NCBI RefSeq assembly: GCF_965261555.1
Contig: NZ_OZ253465.1
Location: forward strand, 878,667 to 942,666
Source of the DNA: Candidatus Palauibacter sp.
GTDB lineage: Bacteria > Gemmatimonadota > Gemmatimonadetes > Palauibacterales > Palauibacteraceae
Length of the DNA stretch: 64,000 bases
Direction of reading: 5' to 3'
Under the pieces are notes generated by a model that did not search any database, had not been told where the DNA came from, and worked only from the letters and a program-made list of their open reading frames with translations. The translations under genes and the position numbers were made by a program. Shown piece by piece: positions 19,311-59,260 of this stretch (its first letter is position 1; every line of letters begins with the position of its first letter).

Positions 19311-19374
19311 TCTCCTGCATCTGATCGCGACCAGACCTATCTTCGGGCGGTAGATCGGATGTGTCGATAGCCCG
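19311..19374. repeat. Conserved non-coding block, copy B
   Basis: Same 64-nt architecture as copy A. Exactly 1260 bp downstream of copy A. Lies in the 5' region of the membrane-protein gene. Confidence 0.7.
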
Positions 19375-19423
19375 CAGCCCATTGAGCAGCCGGCTGCGGG
19401 AGCATGGAATTCAGGAGAGCGCG

Positions 19424-44975: not shown

Positions 44976-45011
44976 TATCGCGTGGGGGCGCCACGGCCGG
45001 CGGACGATCGG

Positions 45012-46925
45012 ATGAGCGTCGCCGCACACGCGCGGAGGGAACGTGTGCCAGTCCGGGTCATGCCGGACCACGACAGCATCGCCGCCGAAGTCGCGGGCCG
45101 GATCGCGGCGCTCCTGCGGGAGAGGGCGAAGAACGGGCGCGCCGCCGTTCTCGGCCTCGCAACCGGCGCCACGCCCGTCGGCGTCTATCGGGAACTCATC
45201 CGCCTGCATCGGGACGAAGGACTCGACTTCTCCAACGCGGTCGCCTTCAACCTCGATGAGTACTTCCCGATGCGGCCCGGCAGCCTGCACAGCTATCACC
45301 GCTACATGCGGGAGCACCTGTTCGACCATGTGAACATCCCGGCGGAACACCGCCACATCCCTCGAGGTGATGTGCCGGAAGCGGAGGTCGAGGCGCACTG
45401 CGTCGAGTACGAGCGCCGAATCCGGCAGGCGGGCGGGATCGACTTCCAGATTCTCGGGATCGGGCGCAGCGGTCACATCGGCTTCAACGAGCCGGGGTCC
45501 GAGCGCGACTCGCGCACCCGGCGGCTCTACCTGGATACCGTCACCCGGAGCGATGCGGCGTCCGATTTCTTCGGCGAGGAGAACGTGCCGCCGCAGGCGA
45601 TCACGATGGGCGTGGCTACAATCCTCGAAGCGCGGGAAGTCGTCCTGCTCGCGACCGGCGAACACAAGGCGGGGATCGTGCGTCGAGCCGTCGAGGGGGA
45701 GGTCCACGCGGACGTCGCCGCGACCTTTCTTCAGCAGCACGCCGCCGCGACGGTCTATCTCGATCCGGCCGCCGCTTCCGATCTCACGCGCGTTCGCACG
45801 CCGTGGCTCGTGGGCGATGTGGATTGGACGGCGGAGCGCGAGACCGCGGCCGTCATCTGGCTGAGCGAACGCATCGACAAGTCGATCCTGCACCTCGCGA
45901 CCGACGACTATCGCGCGAACCACCTCGCGCCGCTCACGTCCCGGCACGGTTCGGCCGAGCCGCTCAACGGACAGGTCTTCAACGCGCTCATCTCCAAGAT
46001 CCGGGGGAAGAGCCGGCTGCCGCGCGGCCAGAACATCGTCGTCTTCTCGCCTCATCCGGACGACGATGTGATCTCGATGGGCGGACTGCTGCGCAAGCTC
46101 GTCGAGAACGGCAACCACGTCACCGTGGCGTATCAGACGTCCGGGAACATCGCCGTCTTCGACCACGAGGTGCGCCGGTACCTGGACTTCCTGCGGCGCG
46201 CGGCCGGCGTCATCGACCTTGGCGACGCCGCGAGCCTCGATGGGGTGCTGCGCTCTCTCGAAGACCGGCTCGCCCGCAAGGAGCCGGGGGGCATCGATCC
46301 CGGCGTGGTTCAGGAACTCAAGCGGATCATCCGCGAGACGGAAGCCACGGCCGCGATCGAATCTCTGGGGCTCTCCGCCAACCGCGCCCGCTTTCTGAAC
46401 CAGCCGTTCTATCAGACGGGAGCGGTGAAGAAGAACCCGATCACGTCGGAGGACGTGGAGATCGTCGCGCAGCTGCTGGAGCAGGTGCGGCCGACGATCG
46501 TGTTCGCCGCCGGGGACCTGTCCGATCCGCACGGCACGCACCGCATGTGCCTCGAGACGGTGGATGCGGCGCTCGCCGGTTACCGCGGCGACCCCCCGTG
46601 GCTCTGGCTCTACCGCGGCGCGTGGCAGGAGTGGAGCCTGGACGAAGCGACCGTCCTCGTGCCGCTCTCCGAAGGCGAACTGCGCGGCAAGGTCCAGGCG
46701 ATCTTCCGACACGAAACACAGAAGGATCTGGCTCCCTTCCCCGGTCCGGATCCGCGGGAATTCTGGCAGCGCGTCGTCGAACGAAACCGGGATACCGCGA
46801 ACCGGCTCGCCGCCCTGGGCCTGCCGGCCTACTACGCCATGGAGGCGTACGTGACGCTGCGGGATGGACGGCGGGTGGAGGGTCCGGAGATCCCCACCTC
46901 CTCTCTCGCGGACGCAGATGCGTGA
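45012..46925 (+). CDS. nagB: Large-form glucosamine-6-phosphate deaminase (NagB domain fused to LmbE/PIG-L-like domain)
   Basis: N-terminal NagB core (LGLATGATPVGVY...FNLDEY...GIGRSGHIGFNEPGS). C-terminal LmbE-like region with PHPDDDVISMGG motif. Confidence 0.7.
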   Translation: MSVAAHARRERVPVRVMPDHDSIAAEVAGRIAALLRERAKNGRAAVLGLATGATPVGVYRELIRLHRDEGLDFSNAVAFNLDEYFPMRPGSLHSYHRYMREHLFDHVNIPAEHRHIPRGDVPEAEVEAHCVEYERRIRQAGGIDFQILGIGRSGHIGFNEPGSERDSRTRRLYLDTVTRSDAASDFFGEENVPPQAITMGVATILEAREVVLLATGEHKAGIVRRAVEGEVHADVAATFLQQHAAATVYLDPAAASDLTRVRTPWLVGDVDWTAERETAAVIWLSERIDKSILHLATDDYRANHLAPLTSRHGSAEPLNGQVFNALISKIRGKSRLPRGQNIVVFSPHPDDDVISMGGLLRKLVENGNHVTVAYQTSGNIAVFDHEVRRYLDFLRRAAGVIDLGDAASLDGVLRSLEDRLARKEPGGIDPGVVQELKRIIRETEATAAIESLGLSANRARFLNQPFYQTGAVKKNPITSEDVEIVAQLLEQVRPTIVFAAGDLSDPHGTHRMCLETVDAALAGYRGDPPWLWLYRGAWQEWSLDEATVLVPLSEGELRGKVQAIFRHETQKDLAPFPGPDPREFWQRVVERNRDTANRLAALGLPAYYAMEAYVTLRDGRRVEGPEIPTSSLADADA

Positions 46926-46969: not shown

Positions 46970-47674
46970 GTGGGCGGGTTCTTCGGTACGGAACGCGTGC
47001 CGTTCGATCTCTTCGGGCCGGTGCATCTCGCGACGATCGGCGTCGTGGTCGCGGTGGGCCTCTATGTGATCCGCGCCGGGATGGCGGCCGATGAGCGGGG
47101 CAGACGCCGCCTCCGCGTGGCGATGGGCCTCACGATCTTCTTCTTTCTCGTTTCGAGGCACGCCTGGAAGGCCGCGACGGGGCTGTGGGCCGCAGAGAAC
47201 GACATACCGCTTCACCTGTGCAACATCATGGGCTGGGTGACCCTGTACGGGCTGTGGACCCGGCATCCCGCGGTTCTCCGTCTCATGTACTTCCTGGGGG
47301 TGGCGGGGGCGGCGCAGGCCCTCCTGACCCCGAATACCGAGTTCGGCGTCGTGCACATCACCTTCTTCGAGTCGATGGGGTCGCATGGAACCGTCGTCAT
47401 CGCCGGGGTGTGGGCGGCGATGGTGGAAGGCTATCGGCCGGCGGCGCGCGATCCGTGGATCGCCCTGGGACTGCTGAACCTGTACGCGGTCGTCGTCTAT
47501 CCGGTGAACCTGCTGCTCGGGTCGAACTATCTCTACGTGATCGAGAAGCCGCTGGGGCCCACGGTCCTCGATTTCTTTCCCGGCTGGCCATGGTACATTC
47601 TGCTTCTGGAACCTGTGGCCATCGGGCTCTTTCTGGCGCTGTGGCTTCCCTTCCGGAACCCGGCGGCGGACTGA
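46970..47674 (+). CDS. TIGR02206/YwaF-like integral membrane protein
   Basis: Seven hydrophobic segments. Conserved LHLCNIMGWVTLYGLW and ...FFESMGSHGTVVIAG... patterns. Confidence 0.5.
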   Translation: MGGFFGTERVPFDLFGPVHLATIGVVVAVGLYVIRAGMAADERGRRRLRVAMGLTIFFFLVSRHAWKAATGLWAAENDIPLHLCNIMGWVTLYGLWTRHPAVLRLMYFLGVAGAAQALLTPNTEFGVVHITFFESMGSHGTVVIAGVWAAMVEGYRPAARDPWIALGLLNLYAVVVYPVNLLLGSNYLYVIEKPLGPTVLDFFPGWPWYILLLEPVAIGLFLALWLPFRNPAAD

Positions 47675-47749
47675 CGGTACCAAGTCTCTTCCCGCTCGAA
47701 CAACCTGTAAAAGAACCCCTGCGAAGAACCCCAATGGAGGATGGACGGC

Positions 47750-47914
47750 ATGCCGGAATGTCCTGTATGCGGCGCGGAACCGACGATTTCGGACGACCCC
47801 GTCGAGGGCGAGTTGCTCGAATGTGAGGATTGCGGAGTCGAACTCGAGATCCTCGCCCTTGACCCCATCACCCTTGGAGAGGCGCCGGACGCGGAGGAGG
47901 ACTGGGGCGAATGA
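47750..47914 (+). CDS. lysW: Amino-group carrier protein LysW/ArgW (absent from the supplied ORF track because it is <60 aa)
   Basis: [54 protein letters not shown]. Two CxxC zinc-ribbon pairs and the hallmark C-terminal EDWGE. Stop overlaps the lysX ATG (ATGA). An alternative in-frame ATG lies at 47741. Confidence 0.75.
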
Positions 47915-48759
47915 GAGTCGGCTTTCTTCATTCGCTCATCCGCAAGGACGAGAAGCTGCTGATCGCGGAGTTGCGCGGGCGCGGCGACGTCGAACTGGTG
48001 TTTCTGGACGACCGCAAGCTCGCGTTCGACTTCCGGAACGTCCCGGACGTCGACGTCGTCCTCGAGCGCTGCATCAACCATTCGCGGGCCATGCACGCGT
48101 TGCGGCTGTTCGAGGGGGCCGGTCTCGATTGCGTGAACCGCTACGAGGTGTCGCGCCGCTGCGGGGACAAGATCCTCACCGCGGCATCGCTCCAGGAATG
48201 CGGTGTGCCGCAGCCTGAGGTCAGGGTCGCGTTCACCGAGGAGTCCGCGCTCAAGGCCATCGAGGAACTCGGCTATCCCGTGGTCCTCAAGCCCGCGGTC
48301 GGCTCCTGGGGCCGCCTTCTGTCGAGGATCAACGACCGGCACGCGGCGGAGACGGTCCTCGAACACAAGGCGATCCTGGGCAGCTATCATCACTCGATCT
48401 TCTTCGTGCAGAAGTACGTCGAGAAACGCGGGCGCGACATCCGCGCGTTCGTCGTCGGCGACGACTGCGTGGCGGCCATCTACCGGTCGTCCGAGCACTG
48501 GATCACGAATACGGCACGCGGCGGAACGGCCTCGAACTGTCCGGTGACGAGCGAGATTGGAGAGCTGTCGCTGCGCGCGGCGGCCGCCATGGGCGGGGGC
48601 GTGGTCGCGGTGGATCTGCTCGAGAGCGGCGGCGAACTGCTGGTCAACGAGGTGAACTACACGATGGAGTTCCGGAACAGCATCGAGGCGACGGGCGTGA
48701 ACATTCCGGAGAGGATCGTGTCCTACGTGCTCTCGCCGGACCGGGCGGCGGACCGATGA
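47911..48759 (+). CDS. lysX: ATP-grasp ligase LysX/ArgX (RimK family) that loads substrate onto LysW
   Basis: RimK-like ATP-grasp. Stop overlaps the lysY ATG (ATGA). Confidence 0.8.
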
Positions 48760-49778
48760 TCCGCGCGTCGATCGCGGGCGGCTCGGGCTACGCCGGTGGG
48801 GAACTGTTGAGGCTCCTGCTCGGCCATCCCGACGTCGAGGTGCGGCAGATCACATCGGAGCGCTTCGCCGGGCGGTTCGCGCGCCGGGTCCATCCCAACC
48901 TGCGCGGCGTCACGCGACTGCGCTTCAGCGCGCTCGAGGAGCTGTCGGAGTGCGACGTGCTCTTCCTCTGTCTCCCGCACGGGGAGTCGTCCCGCCGCAT
49001 CGGCGAGTTCCGGTCTCTGGCGGGGCGGATCGTCGACCTGGGCGCGGACTTCCGGCTCGAGGACGGCGCCGACTATGAGCGCTTCTACGGCCGGCCGCAC
49101 CCTCGGCCGGAGCTCCTGGGATCGTTCGTGTACGGGATCGCGGAGGTGAACCGCGAGGCGCTGGCGGCCGCGGAGCTCGTCGCGTGCGCGGGCTGCAACG
49201 CGACGGCCTCCATCCTCGGGCTCCTGCCGCTGTACCGGGAGGGGGTCGCGGACTCGGTCGTGATCGAGGTGAAGGTGGGATCGAGCGAGGCCGGGAACCG
49301 CGCCAGCGAGGGCAGCCACCACCCGGAGCGCAGCGGCGCCATGCGGTCGTATCGGCCGACGGGCCACCGCCACGCGGCCGAGATCGCGGCGGTGCTCGGC
49401 GGCGACGTGCATTTCTCCGCGACGGCGGTCGAGATGGTGCGCGGCGTCCTCGCCACCTGTCACGTGTTCCTGAACCGGGAGCTGGATGAGAAGGCGCTGT
49501 GGAAGATCTATCGGAGCGCGTACGCCGACGAACCGTTCGTGCGCATCGTCAAGGAGCGGAGCGGCATCCACCGCTATCCCGACCCCAACCTCCTGGCGGG
49601 CGCGAACTACTGTGACGTGGGGTTCGAGCGCGATCCGCTCTCGAACCGGGTCGTCGTCCTGAGCGCGATCGACAATCTCATGAAGGGAGCGGCGGGACAG
49701 GCGGTGCAGGCGTTCAACGTGATGCACGGGTTGCCGGAGGCGCGGGGGCTCGAGTTCCCCGGGCTGCATCCGGCCTGA
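48756..49778 (+). CDS. lysY: LysY/ArgC-type N-acetyl-gamma-glutamyl-phosphate reductase family protein
   Basis: [17 protein letters not shown] Rossmann N-terminus. Catalytic Cys region [14 protein letters not shown]. ArgC fold. Confidence 0.8.
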
Positions 49779-49803
49779 CCGCGACACGCGGAGCTGAATC
49801 CTC

Positions 49804-50460
49804 GTGTGCCGCATCCTCTGCGTCCGCAGCGACGAGCCCTTCGACATGGAGCCGCACCTCGCCGCCTTCGCGCAGCTCGCCCGAGAGAGTCCCGAGTATC
49901 AGGGCGACGGGTGGGGGTGCGCCTGGATCGATGCCGACGGGTCCGACGGGTGGCGCGTCTACCGCAACATCTCGCCGGTGTGGGAGGACGCCGCGGCGCC
50001 GCCCGGGCGCACGAGGCTTCTGCTCGCGCACGCGAGGAGCGCGTATCGCGGAGAAGGGATACGGGTCGAGAACAACATGCCGTTCTTCGACGGGGAACGC
50101 GCGTTCATCTTCAACGGGGAGCTGCACGGAGTGCGGATCAAGGAACGGGGGCGGATCGGCGCGGAGAAGGTGTTCAACTTCGTCAAGCGCTTCGATGATG
50201 GAGACATGGGCCGTGCGCTGGAGCGAGGACTCGATGCGATCGAGAAGCGTACCCGTTACGTGCGGGCGATGAATCTGATCATCGCCGATGCATCGCGCCG
50301 GGTCCACTTCGCGACCCGATTCAGCGAGGATCCGGACTACTTCCGGATGCATGCCGCCCACCGGGACGGTGTGCGGATCCTGTGCTCGGCGCCCTATCCG
50401 GCTCCGGACGGGCGGGGGGCGTGGACGCCGGTGGCCAACGGCGCCATCGGGACGTTCTGA
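49804..50460 (+). CDS. Class-II glutamine-amidotransferase-like Ntn hydrolase (EgtC/YafJ type) embedded in the LysW cluster
   Basis: N-terminal MCRILCV (Cys2 nucleophile after Met removal). ...GDGWGCAW...RSAYRGEG...NNMPFFDGERAFIFNGEL... aligns with EgtC/YafJ-type gamma-glutamyl amidohydrolases. Confidence 0.65.
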   Translation: MCRILCVRSDEPFDMEPHLAAFAQLARESPEYQGDGWGCAWIDADGSDGWRVYRNISPVWEDAAAPPGRTRLLLAHARSAYRGEGIRVENNMPFFDGERAFIFNGELHGVRIKERGRIGAEKVFNFVKRFDDGDMGRALERGLDAIEKRTRYVRAMNLIIADASRRVHFATRFSEDPDYFRMHAAHRDGVRILCSAPYPAPDGRGAWTPVANGAIGTF

Positions 50461-50463
50461 TCG

Positions 50464-51276
50464 ATGCGACGCGAACCCGACGGGCTGCTTCTCGTCAAGA
50501 TCGGCGGCGGAGCATCCATCAATCTGGACGGGATCGCTCGCGACCTGGCGGACTTGTCCGGTCCGCTCGTCATCGTGCACGGCGCGAACGCGCTGCGCGA
50601 TTCCCTGGCCCGGAGGCTCGGGGTCGAGAAGCGCATCCTCACGTCCGTGTCCGGACACGAGAGCGTACGTTCCGACCGCGACCTGATCGACGTGATGCTC
50701 ATGGCCTACGCGGGCCTGCGAAACAAGCGCATCGTGGAACTGCTGCAGGGTCGGGGCGTGAACGCGGTCGGGCTCACCGGGCTCGACGGCGCGCTCGTGC
50801 GCGGCCGCCGCAACCGGGGAATCCGGGTGAGAGAGGGCGGCAAGACGCTGATCAAGCGGGACCTGTCCGGGAAACCCGTGGAGGTGAACCACAAGCTGAT
50901 GGCGTTGCTCCTCGACGGTGGTTTCACGCCGGTGGTGACCGTTCCGCTGATCGACGAACACAACGTGGCGATCAACTCGGAGAACGATGACGTCGTGACG
51001 CTGCTGAGCGACGAACTGCGAGCAGACTGCGTGATCCAGTTGATCGAGGCGCCCGGTTTCCTCGAGGACCCTGACGATCCGGGGTCGGTCGTCGCACGGC
51101 TCGCGCGCGCGGAGCTTGCGCGTCGGGAGGGCGAGGTCGCCGGGCGCATGAAGCGGAAGCTGCTCGCCCTGAGGCGACTCGTGGAATCCGGCACGACGCG
51201 CGTGGTGATCGCGGACGGGCGCGTCGAACGCCCGATCTCGGAGGCGCTGGCCGGACGGGGCACGGTCATCGGATGA
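50464..51276 (+). CDS. lysZ: LysZ/ArgB-type amino-acid kinase (acetylglutamate-kinase family)
   Basis: LLVKIGGGASINLDGIARDLADL...VIVHGANA... amino acid kinase fold. Stop overlaps the lysJ ATG (ATGA). Confidence 0.8.
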   Translation: MRREPDGLLLVKIGGGASINLDGIARDLADLSGPLVIVHGANALRDSLARRLGVEKRILTSVSGHESVRSDRDLIDVMLMAYAGLRNKRIVELLQGRGVNAVGLTGLDGALVRGRRNRGIRVREGGKTLIKRDLSGKPVEVNHKLMALLLDGGFTPVVTVPLIDEHNVAINSENDDVVTLLSDELRADCVIQLIEAPGFLEDPDDPGSVVARLARAELARREGEVAGRMKRKLLALRRLVESGTTRVVIADGRVERPISEALAGRGTVIG

Positions 51277-52427
51277 ACGTGCGCGAGACCGAACGGGAGT
51301 ACGCGCTCGAGGTGTTCCCGAAGCGCGACATCGCGGTCGTGCGGGGCGAGGGCGCATGCGTGTGGGACGACGAGGGTCGCCGCTACATCGATTGCGTGGG
51401 CGGGATCGGCGTGGCGAGCATCGGCCACGCCAACCCGGCCGTCGCCGAGGCGCTGGCGGAACAGGCTCGGGTGCTCGTGTCCTGTCCGGGGATCTTCTAC
51501 AACGATGTCCGGGCGCGGTTGCTGGCCGAACTCGTCTCGATCGCGCCGGCGGGGCTCACGCGCGCCTTCCTCTGCAACTCCGGGGCGGAGGCGGTGGAGG
51601 CGGCGATCAAGTTCGCGCGGCTTGCGACCGGACGGGCGGGGGTCGTGTCCGCGATGCGCGGCTTCCACGGGCGAACGATGGGAGCGCTGAGCGCGACGTA
51701 TAAAAGGGAGTACCGGGAGCCGTTCGAGCCGCTCGTGCCGGGGTTCTCGTTCGTGCCGTTCAACCACGTCGAGAAGCTGCGCGCGGCCGTGGGCGACGAC
51801 ACGGCGGCGGTCATCATCGAACCGGTGCAGGGAGAGGGCGGGGTGCGGCCGGCCAGCCCGGACTATCTGTCGGCGGCGCGCCGCATCTGCGACGAGGCCG
51901 GTGCGGTCCTCGTGTTCGACGAGATCCAGACGGGCTTCTGTCGCACCGGCCGCATGTTCGCCTGCGATCGCTACGGCGTTGCGCCGGACGTTCTCTGCCT
52001 CGCGAAGGCGATCGCGGGCGGCGTGCCACTGGGAGCGGTCCTGGCGCATGAACGGCTGCAGCCGCCGCCCGGGCGGCACGGCACGACTTTCGGCGGCAAT
52101 CCGCTCGCCTGCGCCGCCGCCCTGGCCGCGATCCGCTTCATGCGGGATGAGCGGCTCGACGAGCGGGCGGAGGCGCTGGGCGCCCGCTTCAGCGAGCGTT
52201 TCGCCCGGCGGCGGCCGGGTCGCGTGCGCGCCGTGCGGCAGGTCGGCCTCATGATCGGCGTCGAACTCCGCGAGCGCTGCCGACCCTACCTGGGAGCTCT
52301 CGCGGAGCGGGGCGTCCTCGCCCTCCCGGCCGGCACCACGGTCATCCGGCTGCTGCCGCCGCTCGTGATCACCGAAGCGCAGATCGACGAGGTGGCGGAT
52401 ACGCTGACGGAAGTACTGGCCGACTGA
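51273..52427 (+). CDS. lysJ: LysJ/ArgD-type class-III aminotransferase
   Basis: PLP-dependent acetylornithine-aminotransferase pattern ...DCVGGIGVASIGHANP...FLCNSGAEAVEAAIKFAR...VFDEIQTGFCRTGRMFA...LAKAIAGGVPLGAV... Confidence 0.8.
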   Translation: MNVRETEREYALEVFPKRDIAVVRGEGACVWDDEGRRYIDCVGGIGVASIGHANPAVAEALAEQARVLVSCPGIFYNDVRARLLAELVSIAPAGLTRAFLCNSGAEAVEAAIKFARLATGRAGVVSAMRGFHGRTMGALSATYKREYREPFEPLVPGFSFVPFNHVEKLRAAVGDDTAAVIIEPVQGEGGVRPASPDYLSAARRICDEAGAVLVFDEIQTGFCRTGRMFACDRYGVAPDVLCLAKAIAGGVPLGAVLAHERLQPPPGRHGTTFGGNPLACAAALAAIRFMRDERLDERAEALGARFSERFARRRPGRVRAVRQVGLMIGVELRERCRPYLGALAERGVLALPAGTTVIRLLPPLVITEAQIDEVADTLTEVLAD

Positions 52428-52713: not shown

Positions 52714-55320
52714 TTACGGGGTCGCTAGACGAACCACAGCTGTCGTGCGTTCCGCAGTGTCCGGGGGAAACGTAATGCGTACGGTCGCGGGGTTGGCGAG
52801 GGCAGTCGTTGCGGCGCCCTCCACGACGTCAGGTTCGACTGTGGCGCCGAAGATTCCGAGCTCGTAGCTCCGACCCGCTAGCCCCTCCACCTCGAGAATC
52901 CAGCCACCGGGATCCGCGGTGAAGTCGAGGATGCGCAGGCCGCTGCTCCCTTGACCGGGCTCAAGGTCGATCCGGGGCGGCGCGATCGCGAGTCCACCAT
53001 TCCATGTCACGACGATTTCCGCGCGATCGCCCGCAGGGCCGGCCTCGCCGAGCGTCATCTCCACCGTTCCATCCTCGGTGACTTCGGTGGCTACGCCGTT
53101 CACGGTGATGGAGACGTCACGCGCGCCCGCCGGCACGTCGGGTACGAGGCCGAATGTCAGCGCAGGCCCCCTGGTCGTGAGCGTCGTCCGCTGCTCCCCG
53201 CCTTCCTCCGTCCACCGTTGTCGGATCTCCACGTCCGTCGTCGTCTCCCCGGCTCGGAGCCGTCTCACCGTCACGGCCGGCCAGTCCGGCGGGAGTTGCG
53301 GGGCGAGGCGCACGCGGTCCAGCGGCGCATCGGGTTCCCAGCCGATGACGCCGCGCACTAACGGTGTCACCAGGGCCGAGGTCGCGAAGAACTGGTGGGG
53401 GACGGTCTGATCGAGGGGCTCGTAGAACGTTCCGGACAGCAACTCCGGGTGTCGTCCCAGGCTCCAGTCGAAGGTCATCTGCTTCACCGCGTCCATGAGA
53501 TGGAAGCCGGCCCACGGACGCCGATACCGGTACTGGGCCCACGACACGTATCCCGTCACGAAGGGCCATACCGTTCCCATGTTGTACTGGAGGGGGTGAT
53601 AAAGTTCGCTCTCCGTGGAGAGCATGTGCGCGCCCCAGTCCGACGAGATCCGGTCGCTCGCGAGGTGGGCGAGGGTCGCCCGTGCGCGCGCCTCGTCGAA
53701 CAGGCCGAACGCCGCCGCCGTGGCAGGCCACACGGTGAGGTTGTCGTTGGTTCCGCCATCGGCGAGGATCCCGAAGGCATGGTGTCCCGCGTCGTCCAGC
53801 CAGTACGCGTCGTTCAGGGTCGCCCGCGCGCGGGGAGCGAGCTCCCGCGCCCGGCCCGCGATCCCCGCGTCGCCCATGCGTTCGGCCAACGCCATCGTCC
53901 CTTCAAGCGCCGCCACCCAGATCCCCGCCAGGTAGATGTCCTGGTGGAGCGCGGCCCCGAGGCCGCCGACCTCGACCGCCGCGAGCCCACCCACGGTGTT
54001 CTCGATGATCCCGTCCCCGTCCGTTTCGGCGGTGAGGCACCACGCCCAGGCGCGCCGGTACGCCGGCCACAGTTCCCGCAGGAGGTCGTCGTCGCCGCTC
54101 GCCCGCCAGTACTCGTAAAGGGCGACCATCCAGTAGGGCGTCGTGTCGGCGTGGTAGTAGGCGTACGGGTACACGTCGAACCACGGGATGCGCGCGGCCG
54201 CCTGAGAGATTTCGTGCGTGATCTTGCCGTCCTCGCGCTGGTAGGTCGCGAGAAAGGCGAGTTCCTCCGCCACCAGTTCCCACTGCCCGAGCGCCTCCAT
54301 GGCGAACATGGTCTGCGCCGCGTCGCCGCCGAAGAACCAGCCGAAGCCGGGACGGGTTCCGTTGCGGGAATGGCCCCACCCGGCGACGAACCCGCAGCCG
54401 AGGTCGGGGTTGCAGACGCGCTGCTCCTCCAGGTTGATCTTCGCCCACTCGAGGGCGAGGTCGAGCCGCGGATCCGGCGATTCGATGGAGACGGTGGAGG
54501 CGAGCACCGAGTCGGCCCATGCTCGCTTCGCGTCGTAGAGCGAGCGCGCTTCGGCGATCAGCCGTTCGTAGCTGGCGAAGACCTCCTCGCGGGGCGTGGT
54601 TCCGCCCGCCACCGCGATCGGGATGAATTCCCGCCGCGCGCGCTCCGGGTCGACCGGGATCACCATGGTGCGCGGCGCCTCGCCCAGTTGGTGCGCCGGG
54701 TGTTCCACGGAGTTCACGGCCCACGGAGAGCCGACGACGGCGTTCCTCTCCTGCAGGCTCTCGGAGAGCACGAAGACGCGACGGGCGGCGTCCCAGTAGG
54801 CGTACTGCCCCCCGATCGAACCCGGCCACATGTAGTTCAGCACGGGCTCGAACTCCGCGATGATCTCGAGCGGTTCCGGGCTGTCCACATCGAGCAGGAG
54901 CAGAAGGCCGGGGAGGTCGGCCGGCGCGAGGATGTGCTGGCGCACCCGGAAGGCGGCGTGGCTGTAGGTGATCGTCGTGAGTTCGGGCCGAACCTGCACG
55001 GTGCGCGCGACCTCGTCTCCCGGAATCGGCGTCCCGTAGGCCGGCGTCGAGAAGCCGAGCCGGAAACGGTTCCCGACCTTGAGGGGATGGACCCACAGTT
55101 CCGCTTCGCCCGTCTCGAGCCCCAGCCACGCGGACCGGGGCCCGGTGACGCCGAGATACTCGCCGGGACGCACGGGTCCCGCGAGTTCGATCGGCGAAGG
55201 CGCGATCTCGAAACGCGGAACCCCGGCTGCGGACTGGCCGGAGCCGTTCGCGGGCAGGCCCGCGGCCACCGCGACGAAGAGCGCAGGAAGCGCGACGCGC
55301 GAGTTACTTTCGAGAGCCAT
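52714..55320 (-). CDS. Secreted (alpha/alpha)6-barrel glycoside hydrolase, amylo-alpha-1,6-glucosidase/GDE_C-like
   Basis: Signal peptide. N-terminal beta-sandwich. Central six-hairpin region (...GCGFVAGWGHSRNGTRPGFGWFFGGDAAQTMFAMEALGQWE...GKITHEISQ...YWMVALYEYWRASGD...). C-terminal beta domains. Confidence 0.55.
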   Translation of the reverse strand: MALESNSRVALPALFVAVAAGLPANGSGQSAAGVPRFEIAPSPIELAGPVRPGEYLGVTGPRSAWLGLETGEAELWVHPLKVGNRFRLGFSTPAYGTPIPGDEVARTVQVRPELTTITYSHAAFRVRQHILAPADLPGLLLLLDVDSPEPLEIIAEFEPVLNYMWPGSIGGQYAYWDAARRVFVLSESLQERNAVVGSPWAVNSVEHPAHQLGEAPRTMVIPVDPERARREFIPIAVAGGTTPREEVFASYERLIAEARSLYDAKRAWADSVLASTVSIESPDPRLDLALEWAKINLEEQRVCNPDLGCGFVAGWGHSRNGTRPGFGWFFGGDAAQTMFAMEALGQWELVAEELAFLATYQREDGKITHEISQAAARIPWFDVYPYAYYHADTTPYWMVALYEYWRASGDDDLLRELWPAYRRAWAWCLTAETDGDGIIENTVGGLAAVEVGGLGAALHQDIYLAGIWVAALEGTMALAERMGDAGIAGRARELAPRARATLNDAYWLDDAGHHAFGILADGGTNDNLTVWPATAAAFGLFDEARARATLAHLASDRISSDWGAHMLSTESELYHPLQYNMGTVWPFVTGYVSWAQYRYRRPWAGFHLMDAVKQMTFDWSLGRHPELLSGTFYEPLDQTVPHQFFATSALVTPLVRGVIGWEPDAPLDRVRLAPQLPPDWPAVTVRRLRAGETTTDVEIRQRWTEEGGEQRTTLTTRGPALTFGLVPDVPAGARDVSITVNGVATEVTEDGTVEMTLGEAGPAGDRAEIVVTWNGGLAIAPPRIDLEPGQGSSGLRILDFTADPGGWILEVEGLAGRSYELGIFGATVEPDVVEGAATTALANPATVRITFPPDTAERTTAVVRLATP

Positions 55321-55396
55321 CGTCCCTCCGGTCGTCTCGGATCGGTGCCCTAAACCCTGGTTGACTCGCCGGCATCACGGTAGCCAAGTTCGCCAC

Positions 55397-56434
55397 ATGA
55401 CGACCAGAAGCAATCGAACGTCGACGTACAGCGCTGCGCTGCCGCCGTTTCCCGAAGGCTGGTATTTCATCGGAAAGCGCGCGTCCATCGAGCGCGCGAA
55501 GCTCATCGAGAAGACGTGGATGGGCGAGGAGATCGTCGCCTGGGCCGACGACGAGGGCCGCATCTGCGTGGCGGACGCCTTCTGTCCGCACCTGGGCTCG
55601 CACATGGGACCCGCCGCGGGCGGCCTCGTGCGCGACGGCTGTCTCGTGTGCCCCTTTCACGGGTTCGAATTCGATACCGCCGGCCAGTGCGTGGCCACGC
55701 CCAATGCCCCGCCCCCGAAAGCGGCGAGGTTGAAGCTCTACGAGACGCGGGAGATCCTCGGCATGATCTTCGCCTGGTGGGGGAGCGGCGGGAGACCGCC
55801 GCAGTGGCACCTGCCCGATGAGCCACCCACGGGCGGTGAGTGGTCCGGATTGCGATCCACGACCATGCGCTTCCGCGGCCACCCCCAGGAGACCGCCGAA
55901 AACTCCGTTGATGTGGAGCACCTGGGCTACACGCACGGCTACGACGATGTGGTGCCGACCGACTTTTCGGTCGATGGAGCCTACCTGAAGAGTTGCTTCG
56001 ACTTCAAGAGCGTTCGCCGGATCGCGGGTCTGGCGGATATCCGCTCCGAGGTCTCGGCCGTCACACACGTCCATGGACTCGGCTATTCCTTCGTTGAAAT
56101 CCACGAGACGGCGGTCGGCATAAGGTCGCGCATGTGGGTGCTTTCGACACCGGTCGACGGCGAGTCGGTGGATCTGACGCTGGTCAGCCAGGTGCATGAG
56201 GTCCGCAAACCCCGACGGCGCATCGCGGGTCTGGCCTTCCTGCCCGTGGCGCTGCGCCACAGGCTGCTGAATCTCTTCGTCATACGGGAGGAGAGACGGT
56301 TCGTCCTGCAGGACGTGGTCATTTGGGAAAGGAAGCGCTACCGGTCCCCGCCCAGGCTGTGCCGAGCCGACGGCCCCATCGGAAAGTACCGCAGATACTG
56401 CCGGCAGTTCTACCCGGACCAGGGGGGACGCTAG
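55397..56434 (+). CDS. Rieske [2Fe-2S] non-haem-iron oxygenase (KshA/SdmA/Neverland-type alpha subunit)
   Basis: Rieske ligands CPHLGSHM...CPFHGF. Mononuclear iron motif ENSVDVEHLGYTHG (D-x2-H-x4-H). About 345 aa. Convergent with the P450 gene and overlapping its stop by 4 nt. Confidence 0.75.
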   Translation: MTTRSNRTSTYSAALPPFPEGWYFIGKRASIERAKLIEKTWMGEEIVAWADDEGRICVADAFCPHLGSHMGPAAGGLVRDGCLVCPFHGFEFDTAGQCVATPNAPPPKAARLKLYETREILGMIFAWWGSGGRPPQWHLPDEPPTGGEWSGLRSTTMRFRGHPQETAENSVDVEHLGYTHGYDDVVPTDFSVDGAYLKSCFDFKSVRRIAGLADIRSEVSAVTHVHGLGYSFVEIHETAVGIRSRMWVLSTPVDGESVDLTLVSQVHEVRKPRRRIAGLAFLPVALRHRLLNLFVIREERRFVLQDVVIWERKRYRSPPRLCRADGPIGKYRRYCRQFYPDQGGR

Positions 56435-58476
56435 ACCGGTATCTCGCGGTGTTGCTCGGCGATGTGGAACATGAGCTTCTTGCTCGGCTTCATCGACGGA
56501 AGCGGGTCGAACTTGAACTTGTAGCCCGCCGGCACCTCGAGCCTGAAGTAGTGCGCGATCATCAGCACGTTGACCGCCAGTTGCAGTTCCATCCACCGGA
56601 AACCGAGACAGGTATGCGTGCCCAGCCCATACGGCGCGTACCCCGGACTCTTATGCTCGTCGCGTGGCGGCAGGTAGCGGTCGATGTCGAACGAGAACGG
56701 GTCCGGGAATACATCTTTCATGTAATGGGAGGCCGTAGAGGCGATGAAAATGTTGCTCCCCACCGGCAGTTCGTAGCCCTCGACCACACACGAGTTCATC
56801 ACGGTCCGCATGGACCCCGGGACGACCGGATACATGCGGAGGAATTCCATCAGGAATCGGTGGGTCACATCGATCGACGACCCCGTGATGGCGTCGCCAT
56901 CCGGGTCGCCATCCCCGAACAGCGCATCGGCTTCGCTCCGGATTCGCTCGTAGAGTTCCGGCTGCGTCGCCATGGCGTACACCGCAAAGCTGAGCGCGTC
57001 GCCGAGGTACACGCTGGCGACCAGCGCCGCCGAGAGCGCGAAACGCAGATTCGATTGCGGCACGAACTGCGGGTCGCTCCCGTGCAGGCTGAGCCAGTCG
57101 TCCGCCAGGTCCCGCGGGCATCCGGCTCGCTGTTCGGTGGTATGCACGCTCTGGATCCGCTTCAGCAACGTGTCGACGGTGGCTGCGCGGCGTTTCATGC
57201 CCGGCGTCTTCAGCATGAAGCCGGGCATGGCCTTCATGATCTTGACGGTGAGCGCGCGCTCCTTGTACACCGACAGATCGTCGAAGATGTCCTGTGAATC
57301 GACGCCGACGGACAGAGGCGAAATCTGCGCGTTGGCCATTCGGCGGCAGAGCGACCTCGCCTGGTAGGTGTCGCCGACCTTCCAGTCCGCCATGAAGTTG
57401 CGGGCATACTCGTAGAGAACGTCCGCCTGGTCCGCGAGTCTCCCGCGGGAATACGCCGGCGAGATGGCCTTGCGAAGCCGGAAATGGTCGGCGCCATCCA
57501 GCGACGGCAACACGCCGTTCGCGCCGTAGACTTTCTCGAAGTCGGCGAAATAGTCCTTGGTTCTCACGTAGATCCGGCTGTGCCGGTGTGCCCAGCGATT
57601 CGTCTCCGGGCCGACGAGGAAGAGCATGGGTTCCTTGAACGGCGGGCGGAGCTCGAACACCGGCCCGTACTCCTTCGCAAGTTCCGCGATGATCGCGGGA
57701 AGGTTGCCGGAGCGCAGATGCGGGTTGAGCAGCACGTGACGCAGCTTGACCTTCGGAATGTGCTTGGTGAGGGCCGAACGGCGAAGCAGGGGGCCGGCGA
57801 GGTTGTGTACGACGGCGGCGGCGATGGACCGGCCGATCAGATCCATCCGGCAGATGAACTCGATGCGTTCCTCCGCCTCCTCATCGAGTTGGAAGATGTA
57901 GCGAAAGACATCGCACGTATTGACGAGGCAGATGATGATGACGTCTCTCGGATCCGGAATCTCGTCGGAGAAGATGACCCTCCCGATTCGCGTCCTGGTG
58001 AACTGACGAGCGGTGCCTTCCTCGGCGGCGCCATCCGGTTCGGACTCCCAGGCGCCGCGAGCCAGCGTCCAGAAGTCGCCATCGTGGTGTTCCAGGATGT
58101 TCAATCCGACCAGGCGCTCCAGCGTCCGGTCGATGATGGACTCCGCCCGCGGGGCGAGCCGTTCGATCCAGTACCGGGCGGTCCGTCGATGGGGTGCTTC
58201 CGCGATTTCCTTTAGAAAGGGGTCCAGGACGGGGTCGCCCGTTTCGGTGGGGTCCACGAGGAAAAGGGATTCCATGTCCGTGTCGATGCGCGACAAAAGG
58301 GAGAGTTCCGCGAGCACGGCGCCGGCGACGGCGCAGTTCAACTCCCAGCCGGGGACCTGGTGGAAGTAGCCGCTCTCCTCGTTGAGGAGCATCAGGATCA
58401 ACTCCTCGGGCAGGCTCAGCGCTTGATTGGAAACACTCCCTGTAGGGACGACCATAGGGCTCGACCGCCCGTCCAT
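56431..58476 (-). CDS. Cytochrome P450 fused to an N-terminal GPP34/GOLPH3-like domain
   Basis: C-terminal ~470 aa carry the ExxR K-helix (EFLRMYP), PERF-like PDPFSFDIDRY and haem-thiolate loop YGLGTHTCLG. The I-helix (VYLGDALSF) lacks the usual acid-Thr pair. N-terminal ~200 aa match the GPP34 family (LSLPEELILMLLNEESGYFHQVPGWELNCAVAGAVLAELSLLSRI...). ATG at 58476. An alternative GTG lies at 58503. Confidence 0.75.
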   Translation of the reverse strand: MDGRSSPMVVPTGSVSNQALSLPEELILMLLNEESGYFHQVPGWELNCAVAGAVLAELSLLSRIDTDMESLFLVDPTETGDPVLDPFLKEIAEAPHRRTARYWIERLAPRAESIIDRTLERLVGLNILEHHDGDFWTLARGAWESEPDGAAEEGTARQFTRTRIGRVIFSDEIPDPRDVIIICLVNTCDVFRYIFQLDEEAEERIEFICRMDLIGRSIAAAVVHNLAGPLLRRSALTKHIPKVKLRHVLLNPHLRSGNLPAIIAELAKEYGPVFELRPPFKEPMLFLVGPETNRWAHRHSRIYVRTKDYFADFEKVYGANGVLPSLDGADHFRLRKAISPAYSRGRLADQADVLYEYARNFMADWKVGDTYQARSLCRRMANAQISPLSVGVDSQDIFDDLSVYKERALTVKIMKAMPGFMLKTPGMKRRAATVDTLLKRIQSVHTTEQRAGCPRDLADDWLSLHGSDPQFVPQSNLRFALSAALVASVYLGDALSFAVYAMATQPELYERIRSEADALFGDGDPDGDAITGSSIDVTHRFLMEFLRMYPVVPGSMRTVMNSCVVEGYELPVGSNIFIASTASHYMKDVFPDPFSFDIDRYLPPRDEHKSPGYAPYGLGTHTCLGFRWMELQLAVNVLMIAHYFRLEVPAGYKFKFDPLPSMKPSKKLMFHIAEQHREIPV

Positions 58477-58530
58477 GTAATTTTGAGAAGCACCGGACGG
58501 CACGGCTTGTTCCGGTTGCCGTCGCCATTG

Positions 58531-59061
58531 TCAAGGATGGCGTGACTCGAACATCCAGGTCAAGCCAACGTGCAGGGCCGTTGCATCCGCTTCGGACTCC
58601 GAGGCCCCGCCGGCGCGGAGGGCAGCGGCACGTCCCGCATCCGCACCCTCGATCCAGGAGTGCGAGTAGTCGAAACCGAAGTTCACGCCGCCTCGATACC
58701 AATTCTGCCTGAGTCCGACATCGACCTCGCCGAAGCCGGGTAGCGGCCGCGCGACTTCGTCGTCGGCCGTACCGAAATGACCCCACAGCGCCACGAACGT
58801 GGGTTGCAGGCTGTCACTCAAGTTCTTGGATGCCGCCAGTGCGAGAGTGGTGCCATCTCCCGCATCCCCACCCTCGAACCACGCATACGTATAGCCACCG
58901 AAGGAGCCTGCAAAAAACGACCCGGCGCCCGTGGCGTCGGTTGCGCGCGGTTCACGGAACACCCTGGAAGACTCTGATCCGTCGTGCGGAAGCGGATGCC
59001 GGCACCGGGGGCGAGGACGGTGCTCGCCAACTCGGCCCCCAGGCCAGCGAGTAAAGCGCAC
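58531..59061 (-). pseudogene. Probable remnant of an outer-membrane beta-barrel protein (C-terminal ~120 aa only, no signal peptide)
   Basis: ...GYTYAWFEGGDAGDGTTLALAASKNLSDSLQPTFVALWGHFG...VDVGLRQNWYRGGVNFGFDYSHSWIEG...ATALHVGLTWMFE has alternating amphipathic strands and a terminal W.F as in OMP barrels. The N-terminal part is Arg-rich and lacks a signal sequence. Confidence 0.3.
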
Positions 59062-59260
59062 TCGGTCGATGACCGATGCTGCTTCAGGTGACGGTCGAGC
59101 CGCTCTGCGAGCTTGGCGGCTGGCGGAACGCCAAGACGGTGCTCAACTGCTACCAGAGGCCCGACGAGGGACAGCGGGGGGCATCCGATTGGTGGAGGCG
59201 GTCTCGGCCCGGACGGCAACGGCGACTGGCAGGCCGTGGCGGGGCTTTTGCCACGGGCTG

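What the first reader, a model, noticed from the sequence alone, without database searches (positions are those of the whole stretch)
47750..52427. LysW amino-group-carrier cluster in which an Ntn (class-II GATase-like) hydrolase occupies the position of LysK
The cluster is lysW-lysX-lysY-[EgtC/YafJ-type Ntn hydrolase]-lysZ-lysJ. The junctions lysW/lysX, lysX/lysY and lysZ/lysJ overlap by ATGA. No M20-family LysK/ArgE gene is present. EgtC-type enzymes hydrolyse gamma-glutamyl amide bonds, which is exactly the linkage that tethers lysine or ornithine to the C-terminal Glu of LysW. The embedded Ntn hydrolase is therefore a plausible non-orthologous replacement for the carrier-release step.
Basis: inference. 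Interest (0 to 1): 0.7.

Follow-up and report, generated by a model that had tools for sequence, protein, structure and literature searches.

The report
Ntn hydrolase replacing LysK in lysine operon
A carrier-protein lysine-biosynthesis operon in a sponge-type Gemmatimonadota genome has a cysteine Ntn hydrolase where the usual metal-dependent release enzyme LysK would be, and comparison with hundreds of related clusters indicates that this unannotated enzyme family is a widespread alternative to LysK.

Summary
Window 47750-52427 (+) encodes lysW-lysX-lysY-[218-aa class-II-GATase/Ntn protein]-lysZ-lysJ, with ATGA overlaps at W/X, X/Y and Z/J. No M20 (LysK/ArgE) gene lies anywhere in the 64 kb.

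The Ntn protein belongs to a small, unnamed family of about 215 aa, all starting Met-Cys.
- It occurs in at least 572 species genomes: Gemmatimonadota, Acidobacteriota, Gammaproteobacteria and low-GC lineages.
- It is almost always embedded in LysW clusters, in three positions: Y|N|Z, Z|N|J and J|N.
- Some of these operons also carry homocitrate synthase, homoaconitase and homoisocitrate dehydrogenase, and lack only LysK and LysN.

In a LysW-anchored metagenome sample, 36 clusters were complete. Seventeen had LysK, 12 had the Ntn gene and none had both (p = 4e-5).

A gammaproteobacterial clade has LysW ending in Gln (EDWGQ), which needs such an amidase.

Whole-genome absence of lysK could not be checked.

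The parts
47750..47914 (+). lysW, the amino-group carrier protein: a zinc ribbon with the C-terminal tail EDWGE. An alternative start lies at 47741.
   Evidence: PF21344 scores 57.3 (cutoff 27) and TIGR01206 scores 58.7 (cutoff 53.2). Orthologues are called as 54 aa. The tail was read.
47911..48759 (+). lysX, the ATP-grasp ligase that attaches alpha-aminoadipate (or Glu) to the gamma-carboxyl of the LysW C-terminal Glu.
   Evidence: TIGR02144 scores 332.4 (cutoff 275.6). PF22626 and PF08443 also match. It overlaps lysW by ATGA.
48756..49778 (+). lysY, the [LysW]-aminoadipyl-phosphate reductase (ArgC family).
   Evidence: TIGR01850 scores 377 (cutoff 233.6). PF01118 and PF22698 also match. It overlaps lysX by ATGA.
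49804..50460 (+). Stand-alone class-II glutamine-amidotransferase-fold Ntn cysteine hydrolase, 218 aa, start GTG-TGC. It is the proposed [LysW]-gamma-lysine hydrolase, a non-orthologous substitute for LysK.
50464..51276 (+). lysZ, the [LysW]-aminoadipate kinase.
   Evidence: NF010659 scores 239.5 (cutoff 223). PF00696 also matches.
51273..52427 (+). lysJ, the [LysW]-aminoadipate-semialdehyde aminotransferase (class III).
   Evidence: PF00202 scores 380.8. TIGR00707 scores 437 (cutoff 410). The best named match is LysJ_Th_th at 477.8, below its cutoff of 700. It overlaps lysZ by ATGA.

Best explanation
The 218-aa protein is proposed to be the carrier-release enzyme of a LysW-mediated alpha-aminoadipate lysine pathway, doing the job that the M20 metallopeptidase LysK does in Thermus and in archaea.

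Proposed mechanism (inferred):
1. Methionine aminopeptidase removes the initiator Met and exposes Cys1.
2. Cys1 attacks the gamma-carbonyl of the C-terminal Glu of LysW-gamma-lysine.
3. Lysine leaves through its alpha-amino group, and a LysW-gamma-thioester acyl-enzyme forms. The Asn104-Gly105 oxyanion hole stabilises this step.
4. Water hydrolyses the thioester and regenerates free LysW for LysX.

Recognition (inferred): Arg78 clamps the free alpha-carboxylate of the terminal Glu. The canonical Asp that holds a free alpha-ammonium is replaced by Gly119, which leaves room for the LysW peptide chain.

In lineages whose LysW is encoded with a C-terminal Gln, the same activity would first deamidate the carrier to Glu.

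What is shown: the gene content, the distribution, the fold and the conserved residues. What is inferred: the substrate and the catalysis.
For: 1. Committed association. Of 80 species-genome loci found through the Ntn gene, 79 have it next to lysY and/or lysZ, and 71 have the full W-X-Y-N-Z-J order. The distant members examined (28-45% identity, GC 32-54%) all sit beside LysW-pathway genes, in three different positions.

2. Near-complete operons. L086 is W-X-Y-HCS-HacA-HacB-HICDH-Z-J-N. L089/L090 are W-X-Y-HCS-HacA-HacB-HICDH-Z-N-J, followed by lysS. Every step from 2-oxoglutarate is encoded except LysN and LysK.

3. Complementary distribution in a LysW-anchored sample of 120 metagenome loci. 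Of the 36 clusters with all of W, X, Y, Z and J, 17 have a LysK (380-530 bits on a LysK HMM; NF003367 above cutoff), 12 have the Ntn gene, none has both, and 7 have neither. Five of those 7 end within 61 nt of lysJ. One-sided Fisher p = 4e-5.

4. No LysK or ArgE homologue in the window or in 92 Ntn-anchored loci, about 1.7 Mb in all. The ArgE query does detect T. thermophilus LysK (5xoy) at 1.8e-8.

6. The altered pocket. The [ST]-D-[ST]-E Asp (GlmS Asp123 by motif; the Asp of YafJ 'GETDSE') aligns to invariant Gly119, with posterior about 0.9 in hhalign.

7. The Gln-ended carrier. LysW ends in Gln (CAG) in seven Ntn-type loci and in 37 of the 99 LysW protein clusters nearest to them. Such a carrier cannot be acyl-phosphorylated by LysX until an amidase acts on exactly this gamma-position.

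8. No curated family or paper describes this. NCBIfam gives only a sub-threshold EgtC hit, and the literature searches were negative.
Against: - There is no biochemical evidence.
- Whole genomes could not be scanned, so a lysK elsewhere is not excluded. In Thermus, lysK lies outside the main cluster.
- LysN is also missing from the near-complete operons, so absence from the operon is not unique to LysK.
- The Asp-to-Gly inference rests on a profile alignment and an AF2 model, not on a complex structure. The loop at residues 110-119 is the least confident part of the model (pLDDT about 54). An older HMMER alignment to 3mdn placed the TDSE motif elsewhere.
- One genome locus (L081) has the Ntn gene with no LysW genes within 10 kb.
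- Some gammaproteobacterial clusters are split or eroded (L066, L072).
- Net charge and pI do not distinguish the family from YafJ.
- Only the LysZ NJ tree groups all Ntn-type clusters into one clade. The LysX, LysY and LysJ trees give 3-4 groups.
Confidence: 0.75

Rival explanations
1. The Ntn enzyme has an accessory, LysW-directed role rather than the release step. It would mature or repair the carrier, for example by deamidating Gln-terminated LysW or by clearing mis-charged or dead-end LysW adducts. Product release would be done by an M20 LysK/ArgE encoded elsewhere in the genome.
For: The EDWGQ LysW variants need a deamidase. lysK is known to lie outside the main cluster in Thermus (own knowledge; PMC12998189 treats LysJ and LysK separately). 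Whole genomes could not be checked.
Against: Most Ntn-type clusters encode LysW ending in Glu (76 of 82), so maturation cannot be the general role. The strict exclusivity with in-cluster LysK (17/12/0) is not expected for an accessory factor. No LysK lies within +/-10 kb in 92 loci.
Confidence: 0.12
2. The Ntn enzyme is a transpeptidase or amidotransferase rather than a simple hydrolase. Its LysW-gamma-thioester intermediate would be resolved by the alpha-amino group of a fresh alpha-aminoadipate. This would pass the carrier directly from lysine, or from a Gln terminus, to the next substrate without ATP.
For: Class-II GATases and other Ntn enzymes form acyl-enzyme intermediates, and gamma-glutamyl transpeptidase works this way (own knowledge). 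The Gln-terminated LysW clade would fit an amide-activated carrier.
Against: lysX, the ATP-grasp ligase, is retained and well conserved in every cluster examined, including the EDWGQ ones. There is no evidence for an acceptor site.
Confidence: 0.06
3. The protein is a small-molecule glutaminase or gamma-glutamyl hydrolase of the YafJ/EgtC type, for example supplying ammonia or glutamate. It would only be co-transcribed with the LysW genes and would not act on the carrier.
For: It is homologous to YafJ, whose function is unknown, and to glutaminase domains. The PF13230 match supports this. JGI names some members 'predicted glutamine amidotransferase'.
Against: The residue that binds the free alpha-amino group of glutamine or a gamma-glutamyl compound is an invariant Gly. 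No pathway step needs ammonia. The association with LysW genes persists across phyla, across GC from 32 to 70%, and across three different positions in the cluster. It is mutually exclusive with LysK.
Confidence: 0.04

Closest known systems
LysK, [LysW]-lysine/ornithine hydrolase (M20 metallopeptidase, ArgE/DapE family; T. thermophilus, PDB 5XOY; NCBIfam NF003367)
   Same: It is the proposed functional equivalent, hydrolysing the isopeptide between the gamma-carboxyl of the LysW C-terminal Glu and the alpha-amino group of lysine. It occupies the same kind of slot in LysW clusters and is mutually exclusive with the Ntn gene.
   Different: There is no homology. LysK is a roughly 350-aa di-metal M20 enzyme that works as a carboxypeptidase on the leaving amino acid. 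The window protein is a 218-aa metal-independent N-terminal-Cys hydrolase, expected to work through a covalent thioester on the carrier side.
EgtC, the ergothioneine-pathway gamma-glutamyl amidohydrolase (M. smegmatis, PDB 4ZFJ/4ZFK/4ZFL; TIGR03442)
   Different: The window protein fails the EgtC model (47.3 bits against a cutoff of 218.65). There is no egtA/B/D context. EgtC's substrate has a free gamma-glutamyl alpha-amino group, and here the corresponding Asp is Gly.
YafJ / PA1307 (PDB 1TE5) and SPO2029 (PDB 3MDN): uncharacterised stand-alone class-II GATase-like proteins (Pfam GATase_4, PF13230)
   Different: YafJ-type proteins keep the G-E-T-D-S-E motif with the Asp, are 250-275 aa long, and are not linked to LysW genes. 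Their function is unknown.
Glutaminase domains of GlmS, PurF, AsnB and GltB (class-II amidotransferases)
   Different: Those domains are fused to synthase domains and channel ammonia from free glutamine. The window protein has no synthase partner or domain and lacks Asp123.

Membership tests
LysW (amino-group carrier protein) lysine/ornithine pathway cluster | A carrier protein with a zinc-ribbon domain and a C-terminal EDWGE tail ending in Glu | tested here: met
   PF21344 scores 57.3 (cutoff 27) and TIGR01206 scores 58.7 (cutoff 53.2). The sequence ends EDWGE.
LysW (amino-group carrier protein) lysine/ornithine pathway cluster | LysX ATP-grasp ligase, LysZ kinase, LysY reductase and LysJ aminotransferase encoded together | tested here: met
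   TIGR02144 scores 332 (cutoff 275.6). NF010659 scores 239.5 (cutoff 223). TIGR01850 scores 377 (cutoff 233.6). TIGR00707 scores 437 (cutoff 410). The LysJ equivalog models are below cutoff.
LysW (amino-group carrier protein) lysine/ornithine pathway cluster | An M20 LysK release enzyme | tested here: not met
   No M20 gene is found in the 64-kb window or in 92 related loci, by Pfam, by ArgE phmmer --max, or by the LysK HMM. The rest of the genome could not be read.
LysW (amino-group carrier protein) lysine/ornithine pathway cluster | Dedicated to lysine: linked to homocitrate synthase, homoaconitase and homoisocitrate dehydrogenase | tested here: inconclusive
   These genes are not in this window. 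They are present in or beside at least nine other distinct Ntn-type clusters (ten loci, L089 and L090 being the same cluster). For this window, LysZ passes the aminoadipate-kinase equivalog.
Class-II glutamine amidotransferase / Ntn hydrolase superfamily (Pfam GATase_4, PF13230) | The alpha-beta-beta-alpha Ntn fold | tested here: met
Class-II glutamine amidotransferase / Ntn hydrolase superfamily (Pfam GATase_4, PF13230) | An N-terminal nucleophile Cys directly after the initiator Met | tested here: met
   All 96 aligned members have C2. Database entries that do not start MC are start-codon miscalls.
Class-II glutamine amidotransferase / Ntn hydrolase superfamily (Pfam GATase_4, PF13230) | An Arg binding the substrate alpha-carboxylate (GlmS Arg73) and an Asn-Gly oxyanion hole (Asn98-Gly99) | tested here: met
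   R78 and N104 are invariant, and G105 is present in 94 of 96 members. They align to the YafJ H-I-R and H-N-G motifs.
Class-II glutamine amidotransferase / Ntn hydrolase superfamily (Pfam GATase_4, PF13230) | An Asp binding the free alpha-amino group of glutamine or the gamma-glutamyl moiety (GlmS Asp123; the [ST]-D-[ST]-E motif) | tested here: not met
   This position aligns to Gly119, invariant in all 96 members. The family motif is G-x-[IT]-G-[AS]-x-[KR].
EgtC (ergothioneine biosynthesis amidohydrolase, TIGR03442) | A score above the curated equivalog cutoff | tested here: not met
   The window protein scores 47.3 bits against a cutoff of 218.65, matching residues 34-113 only. The L086 member scores 43.7.
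EgtC (ergothioneine biosynthesis amidohydrolase, TIGR03442) | Genomic association with egtA/egtB/egtD | tested here: not met
   No such genes are in the window or in the Pfam-annotated neighbourhoods.
LysK / [LysW]-lysine hydrolase (NF003367, M20) | Homology to M20 di-metal peptidases | tested here: not met
   The Ntn protein has a different fold. It is proposed to work like LysK but is not a member of that family.
LysK / [LysW]-lysine hydrolase (NF003367, M20) | Hydrolysis of LysW-gamma-lysine or LysW-gamma-ornithine | not testable with these tools
   This needs an enzyme assay.

The most novel reading that the evidence does not exclude
The Ntn-type LysW systems may run a different carrier cycle. 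The enzyme would form a covalent LysW-gamma-thioester and act as a transpeptidase or amidotransferase. It would hand the carrier directly from lysine to the next alpha-aminoadipate. In the EDWGQ lineages it would use a genetically encoded C-terminal glutamine as a pre-activated carrier. ATP-dependent LysX would then be needed only for priming or rescue.
Probability: 0.08. Interest if true: 0.9.

Novelty: new variant of a known kind. Interest (0 to 1): 0.78.

Why it matters
LysK is the only carrier-release enzyme described for amino-group-carrier-protein pathways. If the Ntn family does this step, several things follow.
- About 40% of the typed LysW clusters in the environmental sample (12 of 29) use a mechanistically different, metal-independent release enzyme. 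These are found in Gemmatimonadota, Acidobacteriota, Woeseiaceae-type Gammaproteobacteria and several low-GC lineages.
- It would be a clear case of non-orthologous gene displacement.
- It would fill a 'missing gene' that makes the KEGG and MetaCyc lysine and ornithine modules look incomplete. That gap feeds false auxotrophy calls for symbionts and uncultured bacteria.
- It would give a function to a branch of the uncharacterised YafJ-like GATase_4 group.
- It would provide a protein-C-terminal gamma-glutamyl amidase that could be useful for carrier-protein engineering.
- The Gln-terminated LysW variants would be the first carrier that needs enzymatic activation.

Tried and rejected
- The Foldseek afdb50 library was unavailable.
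- An exact look-up of the window protein found no record.
- Scanning 101 flanking proteins as a pseudo-alignment against Pfam showed only the top 25 of 135 families, so it could not exclude M20.
- A regex for M20 metal motifs found nothing but is insensitive. Both were superseded by ArgE phmmer and the LysK HMM.
- hhalign in global mode against the GlmS N-domain failed. GlmS numbering is therefore mapped by motif through YafJ.
- pI and net charge do not distinguish the family (median pI 8.6; YafJ 8.1), so charge complementarity to the acidic LysW is not shown.
- The apparent fusion proteins P0160 and P0236 are frameshifted assemblies, not Rosetta-stone fusions.
- A single origin of all Ntn-type clusters was considered. 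It is supported by the LysZ NJ tree only, and LysX, LysY and LysJ give 3-4 groups, so it is left open.
- The promoter and terminator scan gave nothing above chance.
- EgtC membership was rejected on score and on context.


Full report
**The observation**

The region holds six co-directional genes on the + strand.
- lysW, 47750-47914. An upstream ATG at 47741 is possible, but orthologues are called as 54 aa.
- lysX, 47911-48759.
- lysY, 48756-49778.
- A 218-aa gene, 49804-50460.
- lysZ, 50464-51276.
- lysJ, 51273-52427.

Curated models confirm the five pathway genes.
- LysW: TIGR01206 scores 58.7 (cutoff 53.2), and the protein ends in EDWGE.
- LysX: TIGR02144 scores 332 (cutoff 275.6).
- LysY: TIGR01850 scores 377 (cutoff 233.6).
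- LysZ: NF010659 '[LysW]-aminoadipate kinase' scores 239.5 (cutoff 223).
- LysJ: TIGR00707 scores 437 (cutoff 410).

The ATGA overlaps at W/X, X/Y and Z/J are in the sequence. The sixth gene starts GTG-TGC, giving M-C-R-I-L. It just passes Pfam GATase_4 (23.7 against 23) and fails the EgtC equivalog (47.3 against 218.65).

No M20 gene was found in the 64-kb window. Pfam was run on about 36 window proteins. phmmer --max was run with E. coli ArgE. A LysK-specific HMM was also run. No homocitrate synthase or argJ is in the window either.

The closest relatives are 'Candidatus Palauibacter' and other marine, host-associated Gemmatimonadota MAGs, at 88-96% identity.

**What the extra protein is**

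An AlphaFold2 model (pLDDT 85.2, pTM 0.86) has the class-II glutamine-amidotransferase Ntn fold.
- Foldseek agrees.

A profile of 96 family members aligns over its full length with E. coli YafJ (hhalign probability 99.3%, E 1.4e-19).

The family is small and distinct. There are 392 clusters at 50% identity with E<=1e-3 among 1.84 billion representatives. It has no NCBIfam model, and sources name it 'hypothetical protein' or 'predicted glutamine amidotransferase'.

C2, R3, W60, R78, N104, G116 and G119 are invariant in all 96 members. H76, G105, K/R122, P93, N157, Y179 and S195 are nearly invariant.

By motif, R78 corresponds to GlmS Arg73, the alpha-carboxylate clamp. N104-G105 corresponds to Asn98-Gly99, the oxyanion hole. 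These residue roles come from my own knowledge of the GlmS and PurF literature.

The canonical [ST]-D-[ST]-E Asp binds the free alpha-ammonium of glutamine. It is GlmS Asp123, and it is present in YafJ, 1te5 and 3mdn. In this family it aligns with the invariant Gly119, at an alignment posterior of about 0.9.

So the enzyme keeps everything needed to attack a gamma-glutamyl amide and to hold an alpha-carboxylate. It has lost the feature that requires a free alpha-amino group. That is the pattern expected if the gamma-glutamyl moiety is the C-terminal residue of a protein. This is an inference from an alignment and a model. The loop at residues 110-119 is the least confident part of the model.

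**Association with LysW genes**

A scan of one genome per species found at least 572 species carrying the family. The best 80 were Gemmatimonadota (Palauibacter, Longimicrobiales), Acidobacteriota (Vicinamibacteria, 'Ca. Marinacidobacterium') and Gammaproteobacteria.

| Gene order in the 80 loci | Loci |
|---|---|
| W-X-Y-N | 4 |
| Truncated versions at contig ends or after rearrangement | 4 |
| Ntn gene alone (L081) | 1 |

Distant members keep the association but not the position.
- L083 (35% identity, GC 43%) is Y-N-Z-J.
- L084 (28% identity, GC 32%) is Z-J-N.
- L085 is Z-N.
- L088 is W-X-Y-Z-N-J.

Two operon types are nearly complete alpha-aminoadipate pathways.
- L086 is W-X-Y-HCS-aconitase large-aconitase small-isocitrate/isopropylmalate-type dehydrogenase-Z-J-N.
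- L089/L090 have the same genes with Z-N-J. They are followed by a lysine-tRNA ligase (NF001756 632, cutoff 468).

An HCS-like gene lies in or beside at least nine distinct Ntn-type clusters (ten loci, L089 and L090 being the same cluster). In these operons the only steps not encoded are the 2-oxoadipate transaminase (LysN) and the release step.

**An unbiased test of complementarity**

The loci above were found through the Ntn gene, so they are biased toward it. I therefore also sampled LysW loci independently. I searched metagenome contigs for the DNA pattern encoding [DE]-E-D-W-G-E-stop (120 loci).

The loci were annotated with the window's W, X, Y, Z and J proteins, an HMM of the Ntn family, E. 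coli ArgE, and then a LysK HMM built from 15 cluster-embedded M20 genes. Two of those M20 genes were checked and pass NF003367 '[LysW]-lysine hydrolase'.

| Release gene in the 36 loci with all five core genes | Loci |
|---|---|
| LysK (380-530 bits) | 17 |
| Ntn gene | 12 |
| Both | 0 |
| Neither | 7 |

- Five of the seven 'neither' loci end within 61 nt of lysJ.
- The only M20 near an Ntn-type cluster (L206) scores 53.8 bits. It lies outside the cluster, is transcribed divergently from it, and is below every NCBIfam cutoff.
- The one-sided Fisher test gives p = 4e-5.
- The same LysK HMM finds nothing in the window or in 92 Ntn-anchored loci.
- Ntn-type clusters therefore make up about a third of all complete clusters in this sample, and about 40% of those that could be typed.

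In a neighbour-joining tree of LysZ, all Ntn-type clusters form one clade and every LysK-type or untyped cluster lies outside it. LysX, LysY and LysJ trees give three or four LysK-free groups instead of one. No LysK-type cluster nests inside those groups. A single origin is therefore not established.

**An unexpected supporting observation**

In five gammaproteobacterial species loci (L066, L072, L074, L078, L080), LysW ends in EDWGQ. The last codon is CAG instead of GAG, with synonymous variation in the neighbouring codon.

Of the 99 LysW protein clusters nearest to these, 37 end in Gln. They include Woeseiaceae and go down to 69-72% identity.

Two divergent examples sit in intact clusters that contain the Ntn gene. 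L095 is W(Q)-X-Y-N-Z-J, and L096 is W(Q)-HCS-X-Y-N-Z-J.

A C-terminal glutamine is chemically LysW-gamma-NH2. LysX cannot acyl-phosphorylate it until the amide is hydrolysed. A glutaminase-fold enzyme specific for the LysW terminus is the obvious candidate.

I could not test whether Gln-terminated LysW ever occurs in LysK-type clusters, because the search pattern required Glu.

**Mechanism proposed**

1. The initiator Met is removed, exposing Cys1.
2. Cys1 attacks the gamma-carbonyl of the LysW terminal Glu in LysW-gamma-lysine.
3. Lysine leaves.
4. The LysW-thioester is hydrolysed, freeing LysW.

This is the EgtC reaction type applied to a protein-borne gamma-glutamyl group. It contrasts with LysK, a di-metal carboxypeptidase-type enzyme.

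The gene content, the distribution, the fold and the conserved residues are shown. The substrate, the catalysis and the role of Gly119 are inferred.

**Caveats**

- Only +/-10 kb around each gene could be read, so a lysK elsewhere in these genomes is not excluded.
- LysN is also absent from the operons.
- The window itself has no HCS, so lysine, ornithine or dual use is not settled for this organism. LysZ passing the aminoadipate-kinase equivalog, and the kinship with HCS-linked clusters, favour lysine.
- Some gammaproteobacterial clusters are split or eroded.

**Comparison with what is known, and novelty**

The pathway is the known LysW/AmCP pathway. The 2025 literature still lists LysK as the release enzyme and builds its evolutionary model on 24 sequences, with no mention of this variant (PMC12998189).

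Full-text searches combined LysW with amidotransferase, Ntn, hydrolase, 'missing' and Gemmatimonadota. None found a description of this enzyme.

The protein is not a member of EgtC, because it fails the model and lacks the context. It is not a member of LysK, because the fold differs. It is a divergent branch of the YafJ-like GATase_4 group with a family-specific change in the pocket.

I class it as a new variant of a known kind: a known pathway with a non-homologous enzyme proposed for one step.

**Verdict**

Biochemical proof and whole-genome profiles are still needed.

Noticed in passing
L066:6173-6469, L072:8576-9004, L074:7528-7980, L078:7376-7792, L080:7713-7991, L095:10001-10165, L096:10001-10165: LysW carrier proteins end in Gln (EDWGQ, codon CAG) instead of the canonical Glu. 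This is conserved across a diversified gammaproteobacterial clade: 37 of the 99 nearest LysW protein clusters, including Woeseiaceae. Every locus examined also carries the Ntn gene.
   Followed up: partly
window 55079-60355: Three adjacent genes look sterol-related: a Rieske/KshA_C oxygenase (55079-56434 +), a cytochrome P450 fused to a GPP34 domain (56431-58503 -) and a methyltransferase with a Sterol_MT_C domain (59261-60355 -). The P450-GPP34 and methyltransferase pair recurs in L002. This may be sterol side-chain modification in a sponge-type Gemmatimonadota.
   Followed up: no
window 49804 (start codon); P0280, P0281, P0283 and 43 other database entries: Gene callers often miss the true start of this family, either a GTG start or an ATG a few codons upstream. 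They then begin at an internal Met, which deletes the catalytic Cys. Of 234 near-full-length entries, 46 do not start MC. In L088 the upstream ATG-TGT is plainly present.
   Followed up: yes
L089:11907-13376 and L084:2450-2572: In low-GC lineages a lysine-tRNA ligase gene directly follows the Ntn-type lysine operon. In L089 NF001756 scores 632 (cutoff 468). L084 shows a LysS-like N-terminus.
   Followed up: partly
L072:9648-9998; L066:6173-20629; L081:10001-10672: Some clusters are eroded or rearranged. lysY is reduced to fragments in L072. In L066 the cluster is split, with lysZ-lysJ about 7 kb downstream. In L081 the Ntn gene stands alone with no LysW genes within 10 kb.
   Followed up: no
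L206:12071-13183: A generic ArgE/DapE-family M20 gene lies 2.3 kb from an Ntn-type cluster and is transcribed divergently from it. It scores 53.8 bits on the LysK HMM, against 380-530 for true LysK, and is below all NCBIfam cutoffs.
   Followed up: yes
window 19361-22128: Two predicted membrane proteins (427 and about 725 aa) have no Pfam match. They lie in a stretch with unusually strong negative AT skew and 73% GC, where long ORFs overlap on both strands.
   Followed up: no
window 44982-46925: This gene encodes a fusion of a glucosamine-6-phosphate isomerase/6-phosphogluconolactonase-type domain with a PIG-L deacetylase domain. It lies a short distance upstream of the lysW cluster, separated from it in the window by a TMEM164-like gene (46970-47674), and is conserved in L001 and L002.
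   Followed up: no
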